Of a DNA stretch of 64,000 nucleotides, positions 13,436 to 51,732 are shown in pieces; within the stretch, counting starts at the first letter, position 1, and each line of letters begins with the position of its first letter. A program made the position numbers and the translations under genes. Below the pieces are notes generated by a model. The model made no database searches and was not told the DNA's origin. It saw nothing but the letters and a program-made list of their open reading frames with translations. This stretch comes from an uncultured Gemmatimonadales bacterium (GTDB lineage Bacteria > Gemmatimonadota > Gemmatimonadetes > Gemmatimonadales > GWC2-71-9): positions 1 to 64,000 of the forward strand of contig CAWDPF010000011.1 of the NCBI GenBank assembly GCA_963804125.1, in the 5' to 3' direction.

Positions 13436-13504
13436 GAGTCACCCTGAACGCAGTGAAGGGGGCATGCCTCGAGGCATGCCCCCTTCGCTTTGCTCAGGGT
13501 GACT
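13436..13504. repeat. REP-1 palindromic element (GAGTCACCCTGAACGCAGTGAAGGGGGCATGCCTCGAGGCATGCCCCCTTCGCTTTGCTCAGGGTGACTG)
   Basis: A ~30-nt perfect arm pair around CTCGAG. Lies between convergent gene ends (lipoprotein and moxR). Family recurs at 38416, 47445 and 50266, with a half copy at 23911. Confidence 0.85.
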
Positions 13505-23852: not shown

Positions 23853-24040
23853 AGACGGAAGGACGGAAGGACGGAAGGACGGAAAGACGGAAGGACGGGA
23901 ACTACGGCGCGAGTCACCCTGAGCGCAGCGAAGGGTCGCGCGACGCATCACGGACCTGCGCCTCGCTCCGCTTCGCTCCGCTCGTCTTTCCGTCTTTCCG
24001 TCCTTCCGTCTTTCCGTCCTTCCGTCTCCCCCGTCCCGCG
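23853..24040. repeat. composite repeat: (GACGGAAGG)n arm + degenerate REP-1 half (GAGTCACCCTGAGCGCAGCGAAGGG) + inverted (CCTTCCGTC)n arm
   Basis: Read directly: cgagacggaaggacggaaggacggaaggacggaaagacggaaggacggg...gagtcaccctgagcgcagcgaagggtcgcg...cgtctttccgtctttccgtccttccgtctttccgtccttccgtctccc. Confidence 0.8.
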
Positions 24041-31344: not shown

Positions 31345-31350
31345 TCGATT

Positions 31351-31471
31351 CCCGTCATCCCGAGCGCAGCGAGGGACCTTCTCAACCGTTCCGGAACGTT
31401 GCCACCGTCCGGGTCAGTGACGAGGGTCCCTCGCTACGCTCGGGATGACGGGGCTACGCTCGGGATGACGG
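31351..31471. repeat. REP-2 palindromic element (CCCGTCATCCCGAGCGCAGCGAGGGACC ... GGTCCCTCGCTACGCTCGGGATGACGGGG, right arm duplicated)
   Basis: Inverted arms of ~28 nt around a ~40-nt loop, with the right arm repeated in tandem. Family recurs at 34708/35048 and 51639. Confidence 0.8.
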
Positions 31472-31677: not shown

Positions 31678-33713
31678 ACGCGGTCTCCACGAAGGGAGTC
31701 TCCGTCGCCGCCGCCGGCCGCCGCCGGAGAAGCACCAGAATCCACTCGCGCGCCGACGCGGCCACGACGAGCAGCGTGACTGCCATGAACGCGAGCGCCG
31801 TGACGGCGTCGAGCCGGTCGTTGAAGATGAGCCGCGCGCCCCGCGCCGCGTCGAGCGAGCCCGCCGTCACCTGCGCGGCCGTGACGGTCGCATGCGACAG
31901 GAAGCCCAGCCGTGGGTCGGCCGCGAACACCTTCTGCCAGCCCGCGGTGAGCGTCACCGTCAGCACCCAGGCGAGCGGCAGGAGGGTCACCCAGGCATAC
32001 CGCGCCCTGCCGCCCTTGATGAGCACGGTGGTGCCCACGCAGAGCGCCACCGCGGCGAGCAGCTGGTTGCTGATGCCGAAGAGCGGCCAGAGCGAATTGA
32101 TGCCGCCCAGCGGATCGGTGACTCCCTGCACGAGGAAGTACCCCCACGCGGCCACCGTGCCGGCGGAGGTGACGATGATGCTGGGATACCATGAGGTCCG
32201 GCCGAGCGGCGCCCAGACGTGGCCGGCCAGCTCCTGCAGCATGAACCGGCCGACGCGCGTGCCCGTGTCCAGGGTCGTGAGGATGAACAGCGCCTCGAAC
32301 ATGATGGCGAAATGGTACCAGAACGCCACCAGTCCCTGCCCGAACGCGCCGCTCAGGATGTGCGCCATGCCGACGGCGAGCGTTGTTGCGCCGCCCGCGC
32401 GGCCGATCAACGTCCCCTCACCGACGTCGGCGGCCAGCCGGGTGAGCTGGTCGGGCGTAACGGTGAAACCCCAGGTGCGGACCACCTCGGCCGCGGCCTG
32501 CCGGGGTGCCGCCGAGCGTGGCGAGCGGCGCGTTGATGGCGAAGTAGACGCCCGGGTCGAGCAGGGTCGCGGCGCAGAGCGCCATCACCGCCACGAACGA
32601 CTCCATCAGCATCCCGCCGTACCCGATCAGGCGCGCGTCGCTCTCGCGCATGATCATCTTGGGCGTGGTGCCGGAGGCGACGAGCGAATGGAATCCGCTG
32701 ATCGCGCCGCAGGCGATGGTGATGAAGGCGAACGGAAAGAGCTTCCCGGCGAAGATCGGCCCGGTGCCGTCGACGAACGAGGTGACGGCCGGCATGCGGA
32801 GCGGCGGCACCACGAGCAGGATGCCGAGCGCCAGGAGCAGGATCGTCCCGATCTTCATGAAGGTCGAGAGATAGTCGCGCGGACAGAGCAGCATCCAGAC
32901 GGGCAGCACGCTGGCCACGAATCCGTACGCGATGATCACGTAGGCGAGGGTGGTCCCGGACCAGGTGAACATCGGCGCCAGCGTGGGCGAGGTCGACACG
33001 TAGCGCCCGGCCACCAGCGCGAGCATCAGGAGCACCACACCCGCGGCGGAGGCCTGGAGGGTCGCGCCCGGCTGCCACACCTTCATCCAGTAGCCCATCA
33101 GCAGCGCGATCGGAATCGTGCAGGCGATGGTGAACACGCCCCACGGGCTGTCCTTGAGCGCGTTCACCACGACCAGCGCGAGCACGGCCGAGAGGATCAC
33201 CAGGATCGCGAGCACCGCGACCATCGCGAGGAGACCGGTGACCGGCCCGGTCTCCTCCTTGGCCATCTGGCCGAGCGATTTGCCGTCGCGGCGCATCGAG
33301 GCGAACAGGATCACGAAGTCCTGCACCGCGCCCGCGAGCACGACGCCGAGCACGATCCAGATCGTCCCCGGCAGGTAGCCGAACTGGGCCGCGAGCACCG
33401 GCCCGACCAGGGGCCCCGCGCCGGCGATGGCGGCGAAGTGGTGGCCGAAGAGCACCCAGCGCGAGGTCGGCACGTAGTCGCGGCCGTTGGCCAGCCGCTC
33501 GGCCGGGGTGGCCCGGCGGTCGTTCAGGCCGAAGACCCGGTCGGCGAGGAAACGGCTGTAGAATCGGAAGGCCAGCAGGTAGGTGCCGACCGCGGCCAGG
33601 ACGAGCCAGGCGGCGCTGATGGTCTCGCCGCGGTGGAGGGCCAGCATCCCCCAGCCGGCGGCGCCGGCGAGGCCGACGAGCAGCCATGCGATGGCGCGGA
33701 GCATATCGACCAA
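31667..33713 (-). CDS. cstA: carbon starvation protein A (CstA) family transporter, 1 frame disruption (~32450)
   Basis: N-terminal ~430 aa in ORF 32418..33713 (LAFRFYSRFLADRVFGLNDRRATPAERLANGRDYVPTSRWVLFGHHFAAIAGAGPLVGPVLAAQFGYLPG). C-terminal part in ORF 31667..32485. Confidence 0.85.
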
Positions 33714-33791
33714 TTAACAGCGGGCGGGGCGCGAGGTGAAGGGTCCCGCGCTCCTTGCCCTCGCCTCGGGCGCGCCGTACCTTCGAGGCCC

Positions 33792-34658
33792 ATGCCCTTG
33801 CCATCATTCGGGTTCGGTCACCGGCCCTCGTGGGAATTCCAGGCTCCGGAAGGGAGCGGTGCCGCCCTCGAGGAGCCGCAGCCGCAGCCCGCGCGCACCG
33901 GCTGGCGCGGCAAGGTGGCGATCGTCACCGGCGGCGCCACCGGCCTCGGCCGGCACATCGCGATCGAGTTCGGCAAGCTCGGCTGCCACGTCGCGTTCTG
34001 CTTCGTGAACATGCCCGGCCGGGACGTGAGCGAGCAGGCCGTGCTCACCGAAGCCGCGCTCACCGCCATGGGCGTCGGCGTCCTCGCCAAGCGGTGCGAC
34101 GTGCGCGACCGGGACGCCGTGGACCATTTCGTCCTCGAGACCAAGCAGCGGCTGGGCGGTGTGCACTTCCTGATCAACAACGCCGGCATCGCCAGCGACG
34201 GCGCGCTGTGGCGGTTGAGCGTGGAGGCATGGCAGGAGGTGCTCGACACCAACGTCACCGGCGCGTTCAACTGCATCCGCGCGGTGGCGCCCGTGTTCCG
34301 CGGACAGCACTACGGCAAGATCGTGAGCGTCAGCGCGCATCAGGCGGAGCGGCCGGGGTTCGGGGTGGCCAACTACGCCGCGAGCAAGGCGGCACTCCTC
34401 GGACTCACCCGCGCGGCGGCGGTGGAGCTCGGGCCCGCCAACGTCAACGTGAACGCCGTCGCCCCGGGCTTCATCCGCACCGAGCGCATGGCCATGCTGC
34501 CGTCGGAGGTCATCGAGCGGGCGCAGAAGAGCTCGGTCCTCGGCCGCGTGGCGGAGCCGGACGACGTGGCCCACGTGATCTCGTTCCTGTGCTCGGAATC
34601 GGCGCGGCACATCACGGGGCAGACGCTCGTGGTGGACGGGGGGTTGTCGCTGGAGTAG
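33792..34658 (+). CDS. SDR-family oxidoreductase (FabG-like)
   Basis: GKVAIVTGGATGLGRHIAIEF (TGxxxGxG)...NNAGI...YAASKAAL (YxxxK)...VNAVAPGFIRT. Clean. Confidence 0.85.
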   Translation: MPLPSFGFGHRPSWEFQAPEGSGAALEEPQPQPARTGWRGKVAIVTGGATGLGRHIAIEFGKLGCHVAFCFVNMPGRDVSEQAVLTEAALTAMGVGVLAKRCDVRDRDAVDHFVLETKQRLGGVHFLINNAGIASDGALWRLSVEAWQEVLDTNVTGAFNCIRAVAPVFRGQHYGKIVSVSAHQAERPGFGVANYAASKAALLGLTRAAAVELGPANVNVNAVAPGFIRTERMAMLPSEVIERAQKSSVLGRVAEPDDVAHVISFLCSESARHITGQTLVVDGGLSLE

Positions 34659-34707
34659 GTCGGGACCGACTGGTGACGCGCGGTGTCGCGCCTGGCGGCA
34701 TGATTCG

Positions 34708-34742
34708 GATCCCGTCATCCCGAGCGCAGCGAGGGACCTTGG
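34708..34742. repeat. REP-2 left arm (GGATCCCGTCATCCCGAGCGCAGCGAGGGACCTT)
   Basis: Identical over 33-34 nt to the reverse complement of 35050..35084. Confidence 0.85.
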
Positions 34743-34746
34743 TCGG

Positions 34747-35077
34747 ATGCGATCCGACCGCTGCCCGCTGTACGTCTACATCCTCAGCAGCCAGACCGCG
34801 TCTACACGGGTCCACGAATGATCTTCATCGCCGAATGTACCAGCACAAGACCGGGCTGTTTCCCGGGTTCACGCGCGAGTATCAGGTCACCCGCCTCGTT
34901 TACTTCGAATGCCACGCGAGCATCCGCGCCGGCGTCGAGCGCGAGAGGCAGATTAAGAGCTGGCGGCGCGCCAAGAAACTTGCCCTGATCGAATCCATCA
35001 ACGGCGGCTGGCTCGATCTCGCCGCCGACTGGTTTCCGGCTCTATCCCGGCAAGGTCCCTCGCTGCGCTCGGGATGA
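34747..35077 (+). CDS. GIY-YIG nuclease-family protein (COG2827/UPF0213-like, ~105 aa), 1 frame disruption, 3' end runs into REP-2 right arm
   Basis: MRSDRCPLYVYILSSQT then RLYTGSTNDLHRRMYQHKTGLFPGFTREYQVTRLVYFECHASIRAGVERERQIKSWRRAKKLALIESINGGWLDLAADWF. Has the YVYIL ... LYTG-T-DL-RR ... H ... Y and R-E---K---R-K pattern of GIY-YIG. Confidence 0.7.
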
Positions 35078-35084
35078 CGGGATC
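35050..35084. repeat. REP-2 right arm (AAGGTCCCTCGCTGCGCTCGGGATGACGGGATCC)
   Basis: Perfect inverse of the left arm at 34708..34742. Confidence 0.85.
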
Positions 35085-35134
35085 CGCCCGACGGCCGACT
35101 TTTTCCCACCCTCCGCCCCCATTACCTTCCCGCC

Positions 35135-35752: not shown

Positions 35753-36766
35753 CCTACGACGTCACGCTCATCCCGGGTGACGGGATCGGCCCCGAGATCA
35801 CCGCGCAGACCGTGCGCGTGCTCGAGGCCACCGGGCTCCGGTTCAACTGGGACGAGGAGCTGGCGGGAATGGCGGCGGTCGAGGCCACGGGCACCCCGCT
35901 GCCCGACGCCACGGTCGAGAGCATCCGGAAGAACTCGCTGGCGCTCAAGGGCCCGCTCACGACGCCCGTCGGCACCGGGTTCCGCTCGGTCAACGTGGGG
36001 CTCCGGAAGGCATTCGAGCTCTACGCCAACGTGCGCCCGGCCCGGACCATCGTGCCCGGCGGCCGGTTCGATGAACGTGGACATCGTTCTCGTGCGCGAG
36101 AACCTCGAGGGGCTCTACATCGGCGTCGAGCACTTCGTCCAGGTCGGCGACGATCCGCGGGCCGTGGCCGAGTCGATGGCGATCGTCACCCGCGCGGGCT
36201 GCGAGCGCATCGTGCGCTACGCCTTCGAGTACGCCCTGCGCCACGGCCGGAAGAAGGTCACGATCGTCCACAAGGCGAACATCCTCAAGATGGTGAGCGG
36301 GCTCTTCCTGGAAGTGGGACGCAGCATCGCGCGGGAGTACGAGGGACGAGTGGAGGCGACCGACATGATCGTCGACAACACCGCCATGCAGCTCGTCATG
36401 CGCCCCGAGCAGTTCGACGTGATGGTGACCACCAACATGTTCGGCGACATCCTGAGCGACGAGGTCTCCGGCCTCGTCGGCGGGCTCGGCCTCGCGCCCG
36501 GCGCCAACATCGGCACCACGGCGGCCATCTTCGAGGCCGTGCACGGGAGCGCGCCCGACATCGCGGGGCAGGGCATCGCCAATCCCTCCGCCCAGATACT
36601 CGCCGCCGCCATGATGCTGGACCACATGGGCGAGCTCGACCGGGCCCAGCGCGTCCGCGACGCCGTCCGGGACACGATCGTGCGGGACAACATCCGCACG
36701 CGCGACCTCGGCGGCACCGCGTCGACGGAGGAGTTCGGGCGTGCGGTTGCCCGGCGGGTTGCCTGA
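35749..36766 (+). CDS. icd: NAD-dependent isocitrate dehydrogenase (IDH3-type) / isopropylmalate-DH-superfamily enzyme, 1 frame disruption (~36065)
   Basis: [18 protein letters not shown]...[35 protein letters not shown]...then [17 protein letters not shown]...[28 protein letters not shown]...[21 protein letters not shown]. Confidence 0.8.
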
Positions 36767-37034: not shown

Positions 37035-38402
37035 CCACGATCCGCGTGGCCGGCCTCCTCCTGCTGCTCGGCGCGGCCCCTGCCGCGCTCGGCGCGCAGA
37101 CATCGCTCACCATCTACAATGACGGCCGCGTTCTGGTGCGCCGGACGGTGCCGGTCACGGTGCCGAAGGGCACCAGCACCCAGCGCGTGACGCTGGGCGC
37201 GCTCGACCCTGCCTCGCTCTTCTCGCTGGACTCCACGGTGACGCTCGACGGCCTCGCCTACGACGGCGCGGTGGACGAGGGCAGCGTGCTGCGCCGGTCG
37301 GTGGGCCGACGGGTGGTCTTCCGCCTGCCCGAATCGAAGGACACCCTGAGCGCGCTGGTGCTTGGCGTCGACCCGCTCCGGCTCCAGCTTCCCGACGGAA
37401 GCGTGACCTTCAGCCCGCCCGGCGCGGCCATCTACCCGGGCGACGTGGTCGTGGCCGACCCCACCGCCGCGCTCCGGCTCACGAGTGCCAAGGCGCAGGA
37501 TCGCCTGCGTCTCGGCTACTTCACGACCGGCGCGGCGTGGCAGGCCGGCTATCAGGTGATGATCGGTACCAGCCGATGCGCGAGTGACCGGCAGCGCGGT
37601 GATCGAGAGCCAGACGCTCCGGGCCGAGGACGCGGAGCTGCAGCTGCTGGCGGGCGCGGTCGGGCGAGCGCAGCCGTCGGCGCCGCCGGTGCCATACGCC
37701 GGGCGCGCCGTCATGGCCGAGGCGATGGCGATGGACAAGGTGGCGGCGACCGAGCAGCGCGTCGGCGAGTTCCACCTGTACTCGCTTCCCGGCCGCACGT
37801 CGCTCCTGCCGGGCTTGACCAGCACCATCGCGCTCTTCGAGCCGGCTCAGGTCAAGTACGAGCGCAACTACGTCGTGCACGGCATGGTGCCGTGGTGGGG
37901 AGTGCTGCCGCAGCAGGGCGACGAGACCGAGGCGCCGGTCGAGGTGTCGTACACGCTCAAGCGGCCGCGGAAGACCGAGTTCGGCGATCGCCCGCTGCCG
38001 GGCGGAGTCGTGCGGCTGTTCCAGGCGGACAGCGGCGGCCGGCCGCAGCTCATCGGCGAGGCCGCGATGGACCACACGCCTGCCGGCGAGGACGTCCGGC
38101 TCTCGGCCGGCACCGCGTTCGATCTCACCGCCCGTCGCGTGCAGACCAGCTACACCACCCGCCGCGACAGCACCAAGGCCGGCTGGCGCACCCTCGCGAC
38201 GGCCGACTACAAGGTCACCGTCCGGAACGCCACCGACAGCGCCGTCACGGTCGACGTCCGCGAGGAGCGGAGTGGCGAGTGGAGCGTGCTCCAGAGCAGC
38301 GTGCCGGCGGAGAAGATTTCGTCGACGATCACGCGCTTCCGCGTGAAGGTGCCCGCCAAGGGCGAGGCGGCGGTGACGTACCGGCTGCGCGTGGTCTGGT
38401 AG
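37031..38402 (+). CDS. DUF4139-family secreted protein, 1 frame disruption (~37565)
   Basis: Signal peptide [23 protein letters not shown], then TSLTIYNDGRVLVRRTVPVTVPKG. Second half has GEFHLYSLPGRTSL...VRLFQADSGG...ATDSAVTVDVREE...ITRFRVKVPAKGEAAVTYRLRVVW. Confidence 0.55.
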
Positions 38403-38415
38403 CGCGCATTCCGCC

Positions 38416-38485
38416 GAGTCACCCTGAGCGAAGCGAAGGGGACATGCCTCCGGGCATGCCCCCTTCGCTTCGCTCAGGGTGACTC
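38416..38485. repeat. REP-1 palindromic element
   Basis: GAGTCACCCTGAGCGAAGCGAAGGGGACATGCCTCCGGGCATGCCCCCTTCGCTTCGCTCAGGGTGACTC. Confidence 0.85.
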
Positions 38486-47444: not shown

Positions 47445-47514
47445 GAGTCACCCTGAGCGAAGCGAAGGGGGCATGATCCGAATCATGCCCCCTTCGCTTC
47501 GCTCAGGGTGACTC
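47445..47514. repeat. REP-1 palindromic element (loop variant CATGATCCGAATCATG)
   Basis: GAGTCACCCTGAGCGAAGCGAAGGGGGCATGATCCGAATCATGCCCCCTTCGCTTCGCTCAGGGTGACTC. Confidence 0.85.
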
Positions 47515-50265: not shown

Positions 50266-50335
50266 GAGTCACCCTGAGCAATAGCGAAGGGGGCATGACC
50301 TGAATCATGCCCCCTTCGCTGCGCTCAGGGTGACT
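50266..50335. repeat. REP-1 palindromic element (loop variant CATGACCTGAATCATG)
   Basis: GAGTCACCCTGAGCAATAGCGAAGGGGGCATGACCTGAATCATGCCCCCTTCGCTGCGCTCAGGGTGACTT. Confidence 0.85.
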
Positions 50336-51609: not shown

Positions 51610-51638
51610 GGGGCTGTAAGGTAGCGGCGCTGATCCGC

Positions 51639-51729
51639 CCCCGTCATCCCGAGCGCAGCGAGGGACCTTGCCCGGGAATGGCTCGAGCCGATCCAGGCAA
51701 GGTCCCTCGCTGCGCTCGGGATGACGGGG
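51639..51729. repeat. REP-2 palindromic element
   Basis: CCCGTCATCCCGAGCGCAGCGAGGGACCTTGcccgggaatggctcgagccgatccaggCAAGGTCCCTCGCTGCGCTCGGGATGACGGGG. Confidence 0.85.
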
Positions 51730-51732
51730 CTC

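What the first reader, a model, noticed from the sequence alone, without database searches (positions are those of the whole stretch)
34708..35084. GIY-YIG nuclease ORF carried inside the loop of a REP-2 palindrome
Two perfect 33-34-nt inverted arms (GGATCCCGTCATCCCGAGCGCAGCGAGGGACCTT / reverse complement) lie 305 nt apart. The only thing between them is a ~105-aa GIY-YIG-family ORF (MRSDRCPLYVYILSSQT..LYTGSTNDLHRRMYQHKTG...) whose 3' end reads into the right arm. The same arm pair occurs twice more in the window (31351-31471, 51639-51729), each time as a simple hairpin with a 27-40-nt loop. This copy therefore looks like a REP-type hairpin whose loop was expanded by a nuclease gene. Candidate interpretations: a selfish or mobile GIY-YIG cassette that targets the palindrome, or a nuclease that acts on this REP family. 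I am not aware of a described REP-embedded GIY-YIG arrangement of this kind.
Basis: partly seen in the sequence, partly recalled or inferred. Interest (0 to 1): 0.75.

Follow-up and report, generated by a model that had tools for sequence, protein, structure and literature searches.

The report
Ssn nuclease gene between hairpin repeats
This is a copy, apparently damaged, of a recently described bacterial system: a small GIY-YIG nuclease gene (Ssn) flanked by the DNA hairpin repeats that such nucleases cut in single-stranded DNA, so it is a new example, not a new kind.

Summary
The repeats are real. Perfect 34-nt inverted arms lie at 34707-34740 and 35052-35085, and the same arm recurs as two gene-less inverted pairs. 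Between the arms lies a GIY-YIG gene whose stop codon falls in the right arm.

The arrangement is already described. Chenal et al. 2025 (PMC11893778) defined the Ssn family: roughly 100-aa single-domain GIY-YIG nucleases that cut single-stranded DNA beside a hairpin repeat (NTS/SRM) flanking their own gene.

- **Protein:** it is 47-48% identical to the NTS-flanked Neisseria gonorrhoeae SsnA ortholog.
- **Arms:** each arm is its own hairpin, with a GTCAT head like the NTS and compensatory changes at three stem pairs. The "palindrome" is therefore two inverted units, not one hairpin with an expanded loop.

Three details go beyond that paper:

- This repeat class has a tandem G.A interior and is missed by the published SRM search motif.
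- The window copy has lost a net 5 nt at the YIG motif. Neighbouring genes also carry frameshifts, so assembly error is possible.
- Related Gemmatimonadales carry this site intact, frameshifted, truncated, reduced to a repeat stub, inverted or empty.

Verdict: a new member of a known kind, of modest interest.

The parts
34707..34740 (+). Left hairpin-repeat unit (SRM-like, family A). It has a GTCAT head at 34714 and a stem TCCC-GA-GC / GC-GA-GGGA around a GCA loop.
   Evidence: Exact match. Unit hairpin supported by covariation across 85 distinct units. Invariant among orthologs while the outer flank diverges.
34747..34797 (+). ssn 5' fragment, codons 1-17 (MRSDRCPLYVYILSSQT), which contains the GIY tyrosine.
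   Evidence: tblastn with intact ortholog P0001, residues 1-17. Alignment A1.
34798..34811 (.). Lesion: a net loss of 5 nt relative to three intact orthologs. It shifts the frame and removes the YIG tyrosine (TRVLYTGST becomes TRL-HGST).
   Evidence: DNA alignment A2. Gap list against L081 and L083. May be real or an assembly error (see Noticed in passing).
34812..35077 (+). ssn 3' fragment in the other frame (..STNDLHRRMYQHKTG...QGPSLRSG*). The last ~8 codons and the TGA stop lie inside the right repeat unit.
   Evidence: ORF table. Pfam GIY-YIG. 48% identity to the N. gonorrhoeae SsnA ortholog.
35052..35085 (-). Right hairpin-repeat unit (family A), a perfect reverse complement of the left unit.
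31347..31380 (+). Family A unit, left half of a gene-less inverted pair between convergent ORF ends.
31423..31470 (-). Family A unit, right half of the pair, followed by a partial tandem duplication of its head (second GTCAT head at 31469).
51636..51669 (+). Family A unit, left half of a gene-less inverted pair. The palindrome extends about 10 nt beyond the 34-nt arm.
51699..51732 (-). Family A unit, right half of the pair.

Best explanation
The locus is an Ssn-type cassette: a small single-domain GIY-YIG nuclease gene (ssn) nested between two inverted copies of the hairpin repeat that this nuclease family recognises.

By homology with the characterised SsnA proteins, an intact product would bind the repeat when the DNA is single-stranded. 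The recognised strand is the one that reads GTCAT followed by the hairpin. The enzyme would cut a few bases 5' of that head and leave duplex DNA and the complementary strand alone. This is inferred and was not tested here.

The same repeat unit is scattered through the genome as inverted doublets, which would be the nuclease's other targets.

In this window the gene appears inactivated by a net 5-nt loss that removes the catalytic YIG tyrosine. In this Gemmatimonadales clade the cassette is a long-resident but dispensable occupant of one intergenic site, between a short-chain dehydrogenase gene and a 205-aa gene. It has repeatedly decayed, been deleted, or been flipped.
For: **Protein**
- Pfam GIY-YIG is the only domain.
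- Close homologs are 111-aa single-domain proteins.
- A tblastn search found the Neisseria gonorrhoeae gene, which sits among 11 canonical NTS repeats in 3.2 kb.
- BLASTP against that 94-codon SsnA ortholog gives 47% identity over 88 residues, E 5e-27, for the intact ortholog P0001. The reconstructed window protein gives 48%, E 2e-26.
- This passes the criterion used to define the family (E<1e-10, at least 75% cover).

**Repeat**
- Each arm has the GTCAT head of the NTS followed by a hairpin.
- Across 85 distinct units from many phyla, 95.3% of cells pair. Three stem pairs switch between C-G and U-A, or between G-C and A-U (44/39, 65/20, 60/19).
- None of 500 shuffles reaches the observed pairing or covariation score, and slid controls give 9-54% paired.

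**Association**
- Among 80 homolog loci from Gemmatimonadota, Acidobacteriota, Chloroflexota, Planctomycetota, Pseudomonadota and cyanobacteria, 64 have a GTCATYCYGA head within 200 nt in the expected orientation, and 35 have one on both sides.
- Exact flanking inverted repeats of at least 12 nt occur in 45/80 loci, against 12/400 control positions.

**Published function**
- Four Ssn homologs cut ssDNA next to their own repeat and do not cut dsDNA, RNA or the reverse strand. Tyrosine mutants bind but do not cut (PMC11893778).

**Locus history**
- The order SDR-ssn-p205-Iso_dh is shared with relatives. Ssn is 86-92% identical where SDR is 97-98%, and about 60% identical where SDR is 85-90%.
- At that same site other contigs show a frameshift (L089), a truncation (L098, L029), a left-arm stub (L090), a solo right arm (L093), an inversion (L099), or nothing (L084, L091, L092).
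Against: - No biochemistry was done for this protein or this repeat class.
- The published degenerate SRM search motif matches no site in the window and essentially none of the 80 homolog loci.
- The single-unit hairpin is not predicted to be stable by nearest-neighbour DNA parameters: -4 kcal/mol, no better than shuffles. The Neisseria NTS gives -8.9 kcal/mol with z -4.25. The model may give the conserved tandem G.A little credit (my assumption).
- The nearest repeats are head-out here (+ upstream, - downstream). In the Neisseria locus they are head-in.
- CDD family cd10448 could not be checked.
- The window gene is disrupted, so at best the locus is a relic. The disruption itself may be an assembly artefact.
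Confidence: 0.85

Rival explanations
1. The cassette is an autonomous mobile element, a GIY-YIG counterpart of REP-associated transposases and their REP doublets. In this reading Ssn cuts at the outer side of each head-out arm, moves or copies the cassette, and spreads the gene-less doublets.
For: - The architecture is IS-like: a gene between perfect inverted arms, with the predicted cut sites on the outside (cut position from PMC11893778).
- Gene-less inverted doublets of the same unit are dispersed in the window.
- The two arms of one locus are often identical over 26-39 nt even where the unit sequence differs greatly between loci.
- Presence/absence polymorphism exists at one site among close relatives.
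- The family is spread across many phyla with similar repeats.
- The authors of the Ssn paper raise this idea themselves.
Against: - All close copies found sit at the same SDR/p205 site.
- Ssn divergence tracks neighbour divergence, which suggests vertical descent.
- The filled/empty difference is larger than the arm-to-arm unit. About 50 nt on the left and 30 nt on the right of the arms are also absent from the empty alleles, and no target duplication is visible.
- Stub and solo-arm alleles look like ordinary deletions.
- GIY-YIG enzymes are hydrolytic nucleases with no known strand-transfer chemistry (established knowledge).
- Few viral copies were found.
Confidence: 0.12
2. A pre-existing REP hairpin was the target of a homing-type GIY-YIG endonuclease gene that inserted into its loop.
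For: - Gene-less pairs with short spacers exist in the same window.
- GIY-YIG homing endonucleases are a known class (established knowledge).
Against: - Empty alleles of this very site have no hairpin (L084, L091, L092).
- Each arm is a self-contained covarying hairpin.
- The protein has no DNA-binding extension. It scores only 16.3 bits against the group I intron endonuclease model, whose cutoff is 56.
- Characterised relatives do not cut duplex DNA.
Confidence: 0.04
3. A housekeeping small GIY-YIG protein (UPF0213/YhbQ-like) happens to lie next to unrelated repeats.
For: - Synteny is conserved within the clade.
- There is a weak match to UPF0213 BH0048 (1zg2, E 8.6e-4).
Against: - Repeat association recurs in 64/80 homolog loci across phyla.
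- The gene is missing or broken in many close relatives.
- Similarity to Neisseria SsnA is far stronger.
Confidence: 0.02

Closest known systems
Ssn nucleases with NTS/SRM repeats (NTS-ssnA-NTS), Chenal et al. 2025, Nat Commun 16:2388 (PMC11893778)
   Same: - Single-domain GIY-YIG protein of about 100 aa, 47-48% identical to the Neisseria SsnA ortholog.
- The gene is flanked on both sides by a hairpin repeat with a (C)GTCAT head and a TC tail.
- The same repeat is dispersed in the genome, often as inverted pairs.
   Different: - The repeat has a longer stem with an invariant tandem G.A interior, and the published SRM search motif does not match it.
- The gene sits inside one head-out pair here, and between pairs (head-in) in Neisseria.
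- The ORF runs about 8 codons into the right repeat.
- The host is a Gemmatimonadales soil lineage. 'Gemmatimonad' does not occur in the paper's main text.
- The window copy is disrupted.
REP-associated tyrosine transposases (RAYTs) with REP/BIME or REPIN doublets (Nunvar 2010 and Ton-Hoang 2012 as cited; Bertels & Rainey 2011 from my own knowledge)
   Same: - One gene is flanked by inverted copies of a hairpin repeat that is also dispersed as inverted doublets.
- The protein recognises the hairpin in single-stranded DNA.
- The gene is typically single-copy and vertically inherited.
   Different: The protein is a hydrolytic GIY-YIG nuclease, not an HUH/Y1 transposase. No transposition chemistry is known for it.
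GIY-YIG homing endonucleases (I-TevI, I-BmoI)
   Same: GIY-YIG catalytic core with the conserved Tyr, Arg, Glu and Asn positions.
   Different: - No DNA-binding domain and no intron or phage context.
- Below threshold for the TIGR01453 model.
- Characterised relatives cut only ssDNA.
UPF0213 small GIY-YIG proteins (BH0048, PDB 1zg2; E. coli YhbQ from my own knowledge)
   Same: A stand-alone GIY-YIG domain of about 100 aa.
   Different: Only marginal sequence similarity (E 8.6e-4). No repeat association is known for that group (my knowledge).
Neisserial dRS3/NIME repeat arrays
   Same: Alternating + / - hairpin units about 80 nt apart resemble the gene-less inverted pairs in the window.
   Different: The unit sequence and stem differ. 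Here the arrays are short (single pairs).

Membership tests
Ssn nuclease family | Single-domain GIY-YIG protein shorter than 150 aa | tested here: met
   Pfam finds only PF01541, residues 9-77. Intact orthologs are 111 aa.
Ssn nuclease family | BLAST similarity to Neisseria SsnA with E<1e-10 and at least 75% cover (the paper's criterion) | tested here: met
   Against the NTS-flanked N. gonorrhoeae ortholog (L131): 47% identity over 88/94 residues, E 5e-27. tblastn gave E 2e-16 in a 7.3-Gb database. The exact N. meningitidis sequence CAX49033.1 was not available.
Ssn nuclease family | Top CDD assignment cd10448 (GIY-YIG_unchar_3) | not testable with these tools
   No CDD/rpsblast tool was available. 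NCBIfam has no matching model.
Ssn nuclease family | Intact catalytic residues (GIY Tyr, YIG Tyr, Arg, Glu, Asn) | tested here: not met
   All are conserved in orthologs. The window copy has lost the YIG tyrosine and is frameshifted, so it is a relic or an assembly error, not an active member.
Ssn nuclease family | Gene flanked on both sides by repeats matching the published SRM search motif HGTCWYN(0-2)YYVSBRHN(0-5)WNVSBRGN(0-2)RNCYNB | tested here: not met
   The window has 0 matches. Only 1 of 80 homolog loci has a match within 500 nt. The paper reports that 42% of homologs meet this, so it is a search aid and not a requirement.
Ssn nuclease family | Gene flanked by an oriented hairpin repeat with a conserved 5' head (NTS-like) | tested here: met
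   GTCAT head plus covarying stem on both sides. The same holds in 64/80 homolog loci.
Ssn nuclease family | Cuts ssDNA only, 5' of the repeat, on one strand | not testable with these tools
   This needs purified protein and oligonucleotides.
RAYT / REP system | HUH Y1 transposase (IS200/IS605 TnpA-like) between the repeats | tested here: not met
   The only domain is GIY-YIG.
GIY-YIG homing endonuclease | Nuclease domain joined to a DNA-binding domain, in an intron or free-standing in a phage | tested here: not met
   Single domain. TIGR01453 scores 16.3 bits against a cutoff of 56. The context is chromosomal and intergenic.
UPF0213 | Clear sequence membership | tested here: inconclusive
   Only E 8.6e-4 to BH0048. 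No UPF0213-specific model was available to test.

The most novel reading that the evidence does not exclude
The repeat-ssn-repeat unit, or the inverted repeat doublets it serves, is mobile. One intergenic site in closely related Gemmatimonadales is found filled, inverted, reduced to a stub, and cleanly empty, with the same empty junction in two lineages. That pattern may record gain, loss and flipping driven by the nuclease and its hairpins rather than ordinary deletion. If so, Ssn would be a GIY-YIG analogue of the REP-associated transposases.
Probability: 0.12. Interest if true: 0.7.

Novelty: new member of a known kind. Interest (0 to 1): 0.3.

Why it matters
**Limits on novelty.** The Ssn family was described only in 2025, and its role outside Neisseria is open. 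This locus adds no new principle.

**What it does add**
- The family and its repeats are common in soil phyla (Gemmatimonadota, Acidobacteriota, Chloroflexota).
- These lineages use a repeat class that the published search motif misses, so the reported share of repeat-flanked genes (42-71%) may be an underestimate.
- One orthologous site shows many states (intact, broken, stub, inverted, empty). This is a natural series for asking whether the cassette is mobile or merely dispensable.
- The repeat variants with their cognate proteins could widen the set of ssDNA cutters of differing specificity that the original authors want as tools.

Tried and rejected
- **Literature.** 'GIY-YIG' with 'repetitive extragenic palindromic' gave nothing. 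'GIY-YIG' with 'RAYT' gave only fungal mitogenome papers. A broader search found the Ssn paper. Searches for follow-up work found no study of mobility or of this repeat class.\n- **Source contig.** Looking up the window's own 80-aa product failed, because it is not on record.\n- **Published SRM motif.** No hits in the window or in homolog flanks.\n- **Supplementary files** of the Ssn paper are not held. I took the Neisseria sequence from a gonococcal chromosome filed among plasmids.\n- **NCBIfam** has no family model. By sequence search, **PDB** shows no solved Ssn structure, only the marginal 1zg2 hit and spurious catalase hits.\n- **Rfam** finds no RNA family anywhere in the window, so a structured-RNA reading has no support.\n- **Phage carriage.** Only weak or few hits (35-40% identity in phage records; 15 viral contigs), so phages are not an evident vehicle.\n- **Gene-less pairs as internally deleted cassettes.** Similarity beyond the arms is limited to about 10 nt. 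I dropped the idea as unsupported.\n- **Fold of a single unit** is not better than shuffles. I relied on covariation instead.\n- **Not run:** structure prediction and the representative-protein search, because homology to SsnA was already clear.

Full report
**1. What is in the sequence**

The two arms are real. GGATCCCGTCATCCCGAGCGCAGCGAGGGACCTT lies at 34707-34740 on the top strand, and its perfect reverse complement lies at 35052-35085, 311 nt away.

The 23-nt core GTCATCCCGAGCGCAGCGAGGGA occurs six times in the 64 kb, always as an inverted pair: 31354/31427, 34714/35056 and 51643/51703. None is expected by chance. The 31.3-kb pair carries a partial tandem duplication of its right head.

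Between the arms at 34.7 kb lies a GIY-YIG domain (PF01541, E 4.6e-11). Its frame ends at TGA 35075-35077, inside the right arm.

The ORF is not intact. The first 17 codons from ATG 34747 are in one frame and the remainder is in another. Against three intact orthologs the window has lost a net 5 nt at 34798-34811, turning TRVLYTGST into TRL-HGST and removing the YIG tyrosine. The source annotation called only an 80-aa C-terminal piece (P0013).

**2. The arms are two hairpin units, not one big hairpin**

Each arm reads GTCA-TCCC-GA-GC-GCA-GC-GA-GGGA-(C/T)C. That is a head, a 4-bp outer stem, a tandem G.A, a 2-bp inner stem and a 3-nt loop.

I collected units beginning GTCATYCYGA from all fetched loci. 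204 of 313 have the GA...GA geometry, and 200 of those have all three variable outer pairs complementary.

On 85 distinct equal-length units, 95.3% of cells pair. Pair 7-23 is C-G in 44 units and U-A in 39. Pair 9-21 is C-G in 65 and U-A in 20. Pair 12-18 is G-C in 60 and A-U in 19. The G.A positions are invariant. No shuffle of 500 reaches the observed pairing or covariation score, and slid structures pair only 9-54%. Longer variants keep the outer stem and the G.A and replace the inner stem with other complementary sequences.

Nearest-neighbour folding of one unit is unimpressive: -4 kcal/mol, no better than shuffles. The Neisseria NTS gives -8.9 kcal/mol. The evidence for the unit hairpin is therefore the covariation.

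The gene-less pairs can also fold as long hairpins in single strands, at -44 to -56 kcal/mol.

**3. The association is a property of the protein family**

Close homologs are 111 aa, and all end in ...QGPSLRSG, which is the right arm translated. Two have N-terminal extensions reading VIPSAARDLGRM, which is the left arm translated.

A scan of one genome per species returned more than 566 relatives. The best 80 come from Gemmatimonadota, Acidobacteriota, Chloroflexota, Planctomycetota, Pseudomonadota, cyanobacteria and others.

| Measure across the 80 loci | Result |
|---|---|
| GTCATYCYGA head within 200 nt in the expected orientation | 64 loci |
| Head present on both sides | 35 loci |
| Exact flanking inverted repeat of at least 12 nt | 45/80, against 12/400 control positions |
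| Further heads more than 200 nt from the gene | 0.30 per kb |

The two arms of one locus are often identical over 26-39 nt although the unit differs between loci.

**4. It is the Ssn system**

A literature search led to Chenal et al. 2025 (PMC11893778). SsnA of Neisseria meningitidis is a 94-aa single-domain GIY-YIG protein in CDD family cd10448.

- It binds the NTS hairpin repeat CGTCATTCCCGCGMAVGCGGGAATCYRG only as single-stranded DNA and cuts just upstream of it.
- The reverse strand, duplex DNA and RNA are not cut.
- Tyrosine mutants bind but do not cut.
- Three further homologs cut beside their own repeats.
- In Neisseria the enzyme lowers transformation by NTS-flanked DNA.
- 71% of homolog genes have at least one Ssn-related motif (SRM) nearby, and 42% have one on both sides.
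- The authors note the IS-like NTS-ssnA-NTS layout and compare it with REP-associated transposases.

To test membership I needed a Neisseria sequence. A tblastn search of the plasmid collection hit two N. gonorrhoeae chromosomes filed there (E 2e-16). The region holds a 94-codon reading frame surrounded by 11 canonical NTS copies in 3.2 kb.

That protein is 47% identical to P0001 over 88 residues (E 5e-27) and 48% identical to the reconstructed window protein (E 2e-26). This passes the paper's homology criterion. I could not test the cd10448 assignment.

**5. Where this case differs from the published description**

- **Search motif.** The published SRM motif finds nothing in the window and only one site near the 80 homologs. 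It does not allow the two extra G.A positions on each side of the stem. The head (GTCAT), the stem ends (TYCC/GGRA) and the TC tail are shared with the NTS.
- **Orientation.** Here the heads point outward (+ upstream, - downstream), so the gene lies inside one doublet. In the gonococcal locus the nearest repeats are head-in and the gene lies between doublets. Among the 80 loci the nearest repeats are head-out in 30 and head-in in 9.
- **Overlap with the gene.** The right unit supplies the last codons and the stop. The 3' half of the left unit (GAGGGA) lies about 11 nt before the ATG, where a ribosome-binding site would be (direct reading). The regulatory meaning is speculation.

**6. History of the locus**

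The gene order SDR - ssn - 205-aa gene - Iso_dh is shared with the contigs that carry P0001 and P0002, with two more distant Gemmatimonadales MAGs (L001, L029), and with many soil metagenome contigs.

Ssn identity falls with neighbour identity: 86-92% where SDR is 97-98%, 66-69% where SDR is 94-95%, and about 60% where SDR is 85-93%. That fits long vertical residence with fast evolution of Ssn. The arms are invariant among the closest orthologs while the DNA just outside them has diverged beyond alignment in L083.

At the same site I found these states:

| State | Loci |
|---|---|
| Intact gene | L001, L081-83, L085-87, L097, L100-102, L106, L108-110, L123-124 |
| Frameshift | window, L089 |
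| Truncation | L029, L098 |
| Left-arm stub without gene | L090 |
| Solo right arm | L093 |
| Whole arm-to-arm segment inverted, ORF intact | L099 |
| Nothing, 30-nt spacer | L084, L091, L092 |

L084 is as close to the window as the filled L081 is (SDR 98%, 205-aa gene 96%).

The filled/empty difference spans more than the arms. About 50 nt to the left and 30 nt to the right of the arms are also absent from the empty alleles, and there is no visible target duplication. No contig has a gene-less doublet at this site.

These facts argue against insertion into a pre-existing hairpin and against precise arm-bounded excision. They fit a dispensable resident that decays, and one that flips by recombination between its inverted arms. 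L084 and L091/92 share a similar empty junction, which I cannot explain. It keeps a mobility reading alive at low probability.

**7. Caveat on the frameshift**

Relative to both L081 and L083 the window also has a 1-nt insertion at 36072 inside the Iso_dh gene. It splits that gene between two frames. A second 1-nt insertion lies at 37573 in the next conserved gene. Broken housekeeping genes suggest indel errors in the assembly, so the 5-nt loss in ssn may be an artefact. Against that, it is a cluster of four gaps within 14 nt while nearby homopolymers agree with the relatives. I leave this open.

**8. Other repeats**

A profile of the unit also detects a second family, AGTCACCCTGAGCGAAGCGAAGGGGGCATG. 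It has four inverted doublets and one singleton.

It has the same geometry, with the head T changed to C and the partner A changed to G. GTCAC-type units abut Ssn homologs in other loci.

The window therefore holds about 16 units of this class but only one ssn copy.

**9. Verdict**

It is an instance of the Ssn/SRM system published in 2025, not an undescribed arrangement. The mechanism rests on homology and was not tested here.

I file it as a new member of a known kind. It adds a repeat variant that extends the published motif, and a useful natural series of locus states.

Noticed in passing
window 36072 and 37573: There are single-base insertions relative to both relatives L081 and L083. One is inside the Iso_dh gene: its N- and C-terminal halves lie in different frames and an in-frame TGA is created. 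The other is inside the following 455-aa gene. This suggests indel errors in the assembly and bears on whether the ssn frameshift is real.
   Followed up: partly
window 13437-13504, 38417-38484, 47446-47513, 50267-50335 (pairs) and 23912-23937 (single): A second hairpin-repeat family, AGTCACCCTGAGCGAAGCGAAGGGGGCATG, has the same head-stem-G.A-stem geometry as the arms around ssn. It differs by a compensating T-to-C / A-to-G change next to the head. It occurs as near-perfect 68-nt palindromes. No nuclease gene is associated with it in the window.
   Followed up: partly
L099:1406-1690 (metagenome contig Ga0070696_100072121): At the orthologous SDR/p205 site the whole arm-to-arm segment is inverted, with an intact ssn ORF on the opposite strand. 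This is the product expected from recombination between the inverted arms.
   Followed up: partly
L084:193-224, L091:2076-2107, L092:2470-2501: Empty alleles of the site have similar 30-nt spacers in two lineages whose 205-aa genes differ greatly: 96% and 73% identity to the window, with SDR at 97-98% in both. The shared empty junction, and the sharp drop in identity just across the site, hint at recombination there. This is unexplained.
   Followed up: no
window 31450-31470: The head of the right-hand unit of the 31.3-kb pair is partly duplicated in tandem (GCTACGCTCGGGATGACGGG twice).
   Followed up: no
L131 (NZ_CP119142.1 1880219-1883479): Two N. gonorrhoeae chromosomes are filed as plasmids in the plasmid collection. 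In this strain the 94-codon ssnA frame has no ATG/GTG/TTG at its first codon (it begins ATT ATA TGC), so the gonococcal copy may use an unusual start or be inactive.
   Followed up: no
window 31776-34658 (+): The 960-aa ORF in the mechanical list is mostly a high-GC artefact. Only its last ~260 codons are the short-chain dehydrogenase. A CstA-like gene lies on the opposite strand (32418-33713), as in L083.
   Followed up: partly
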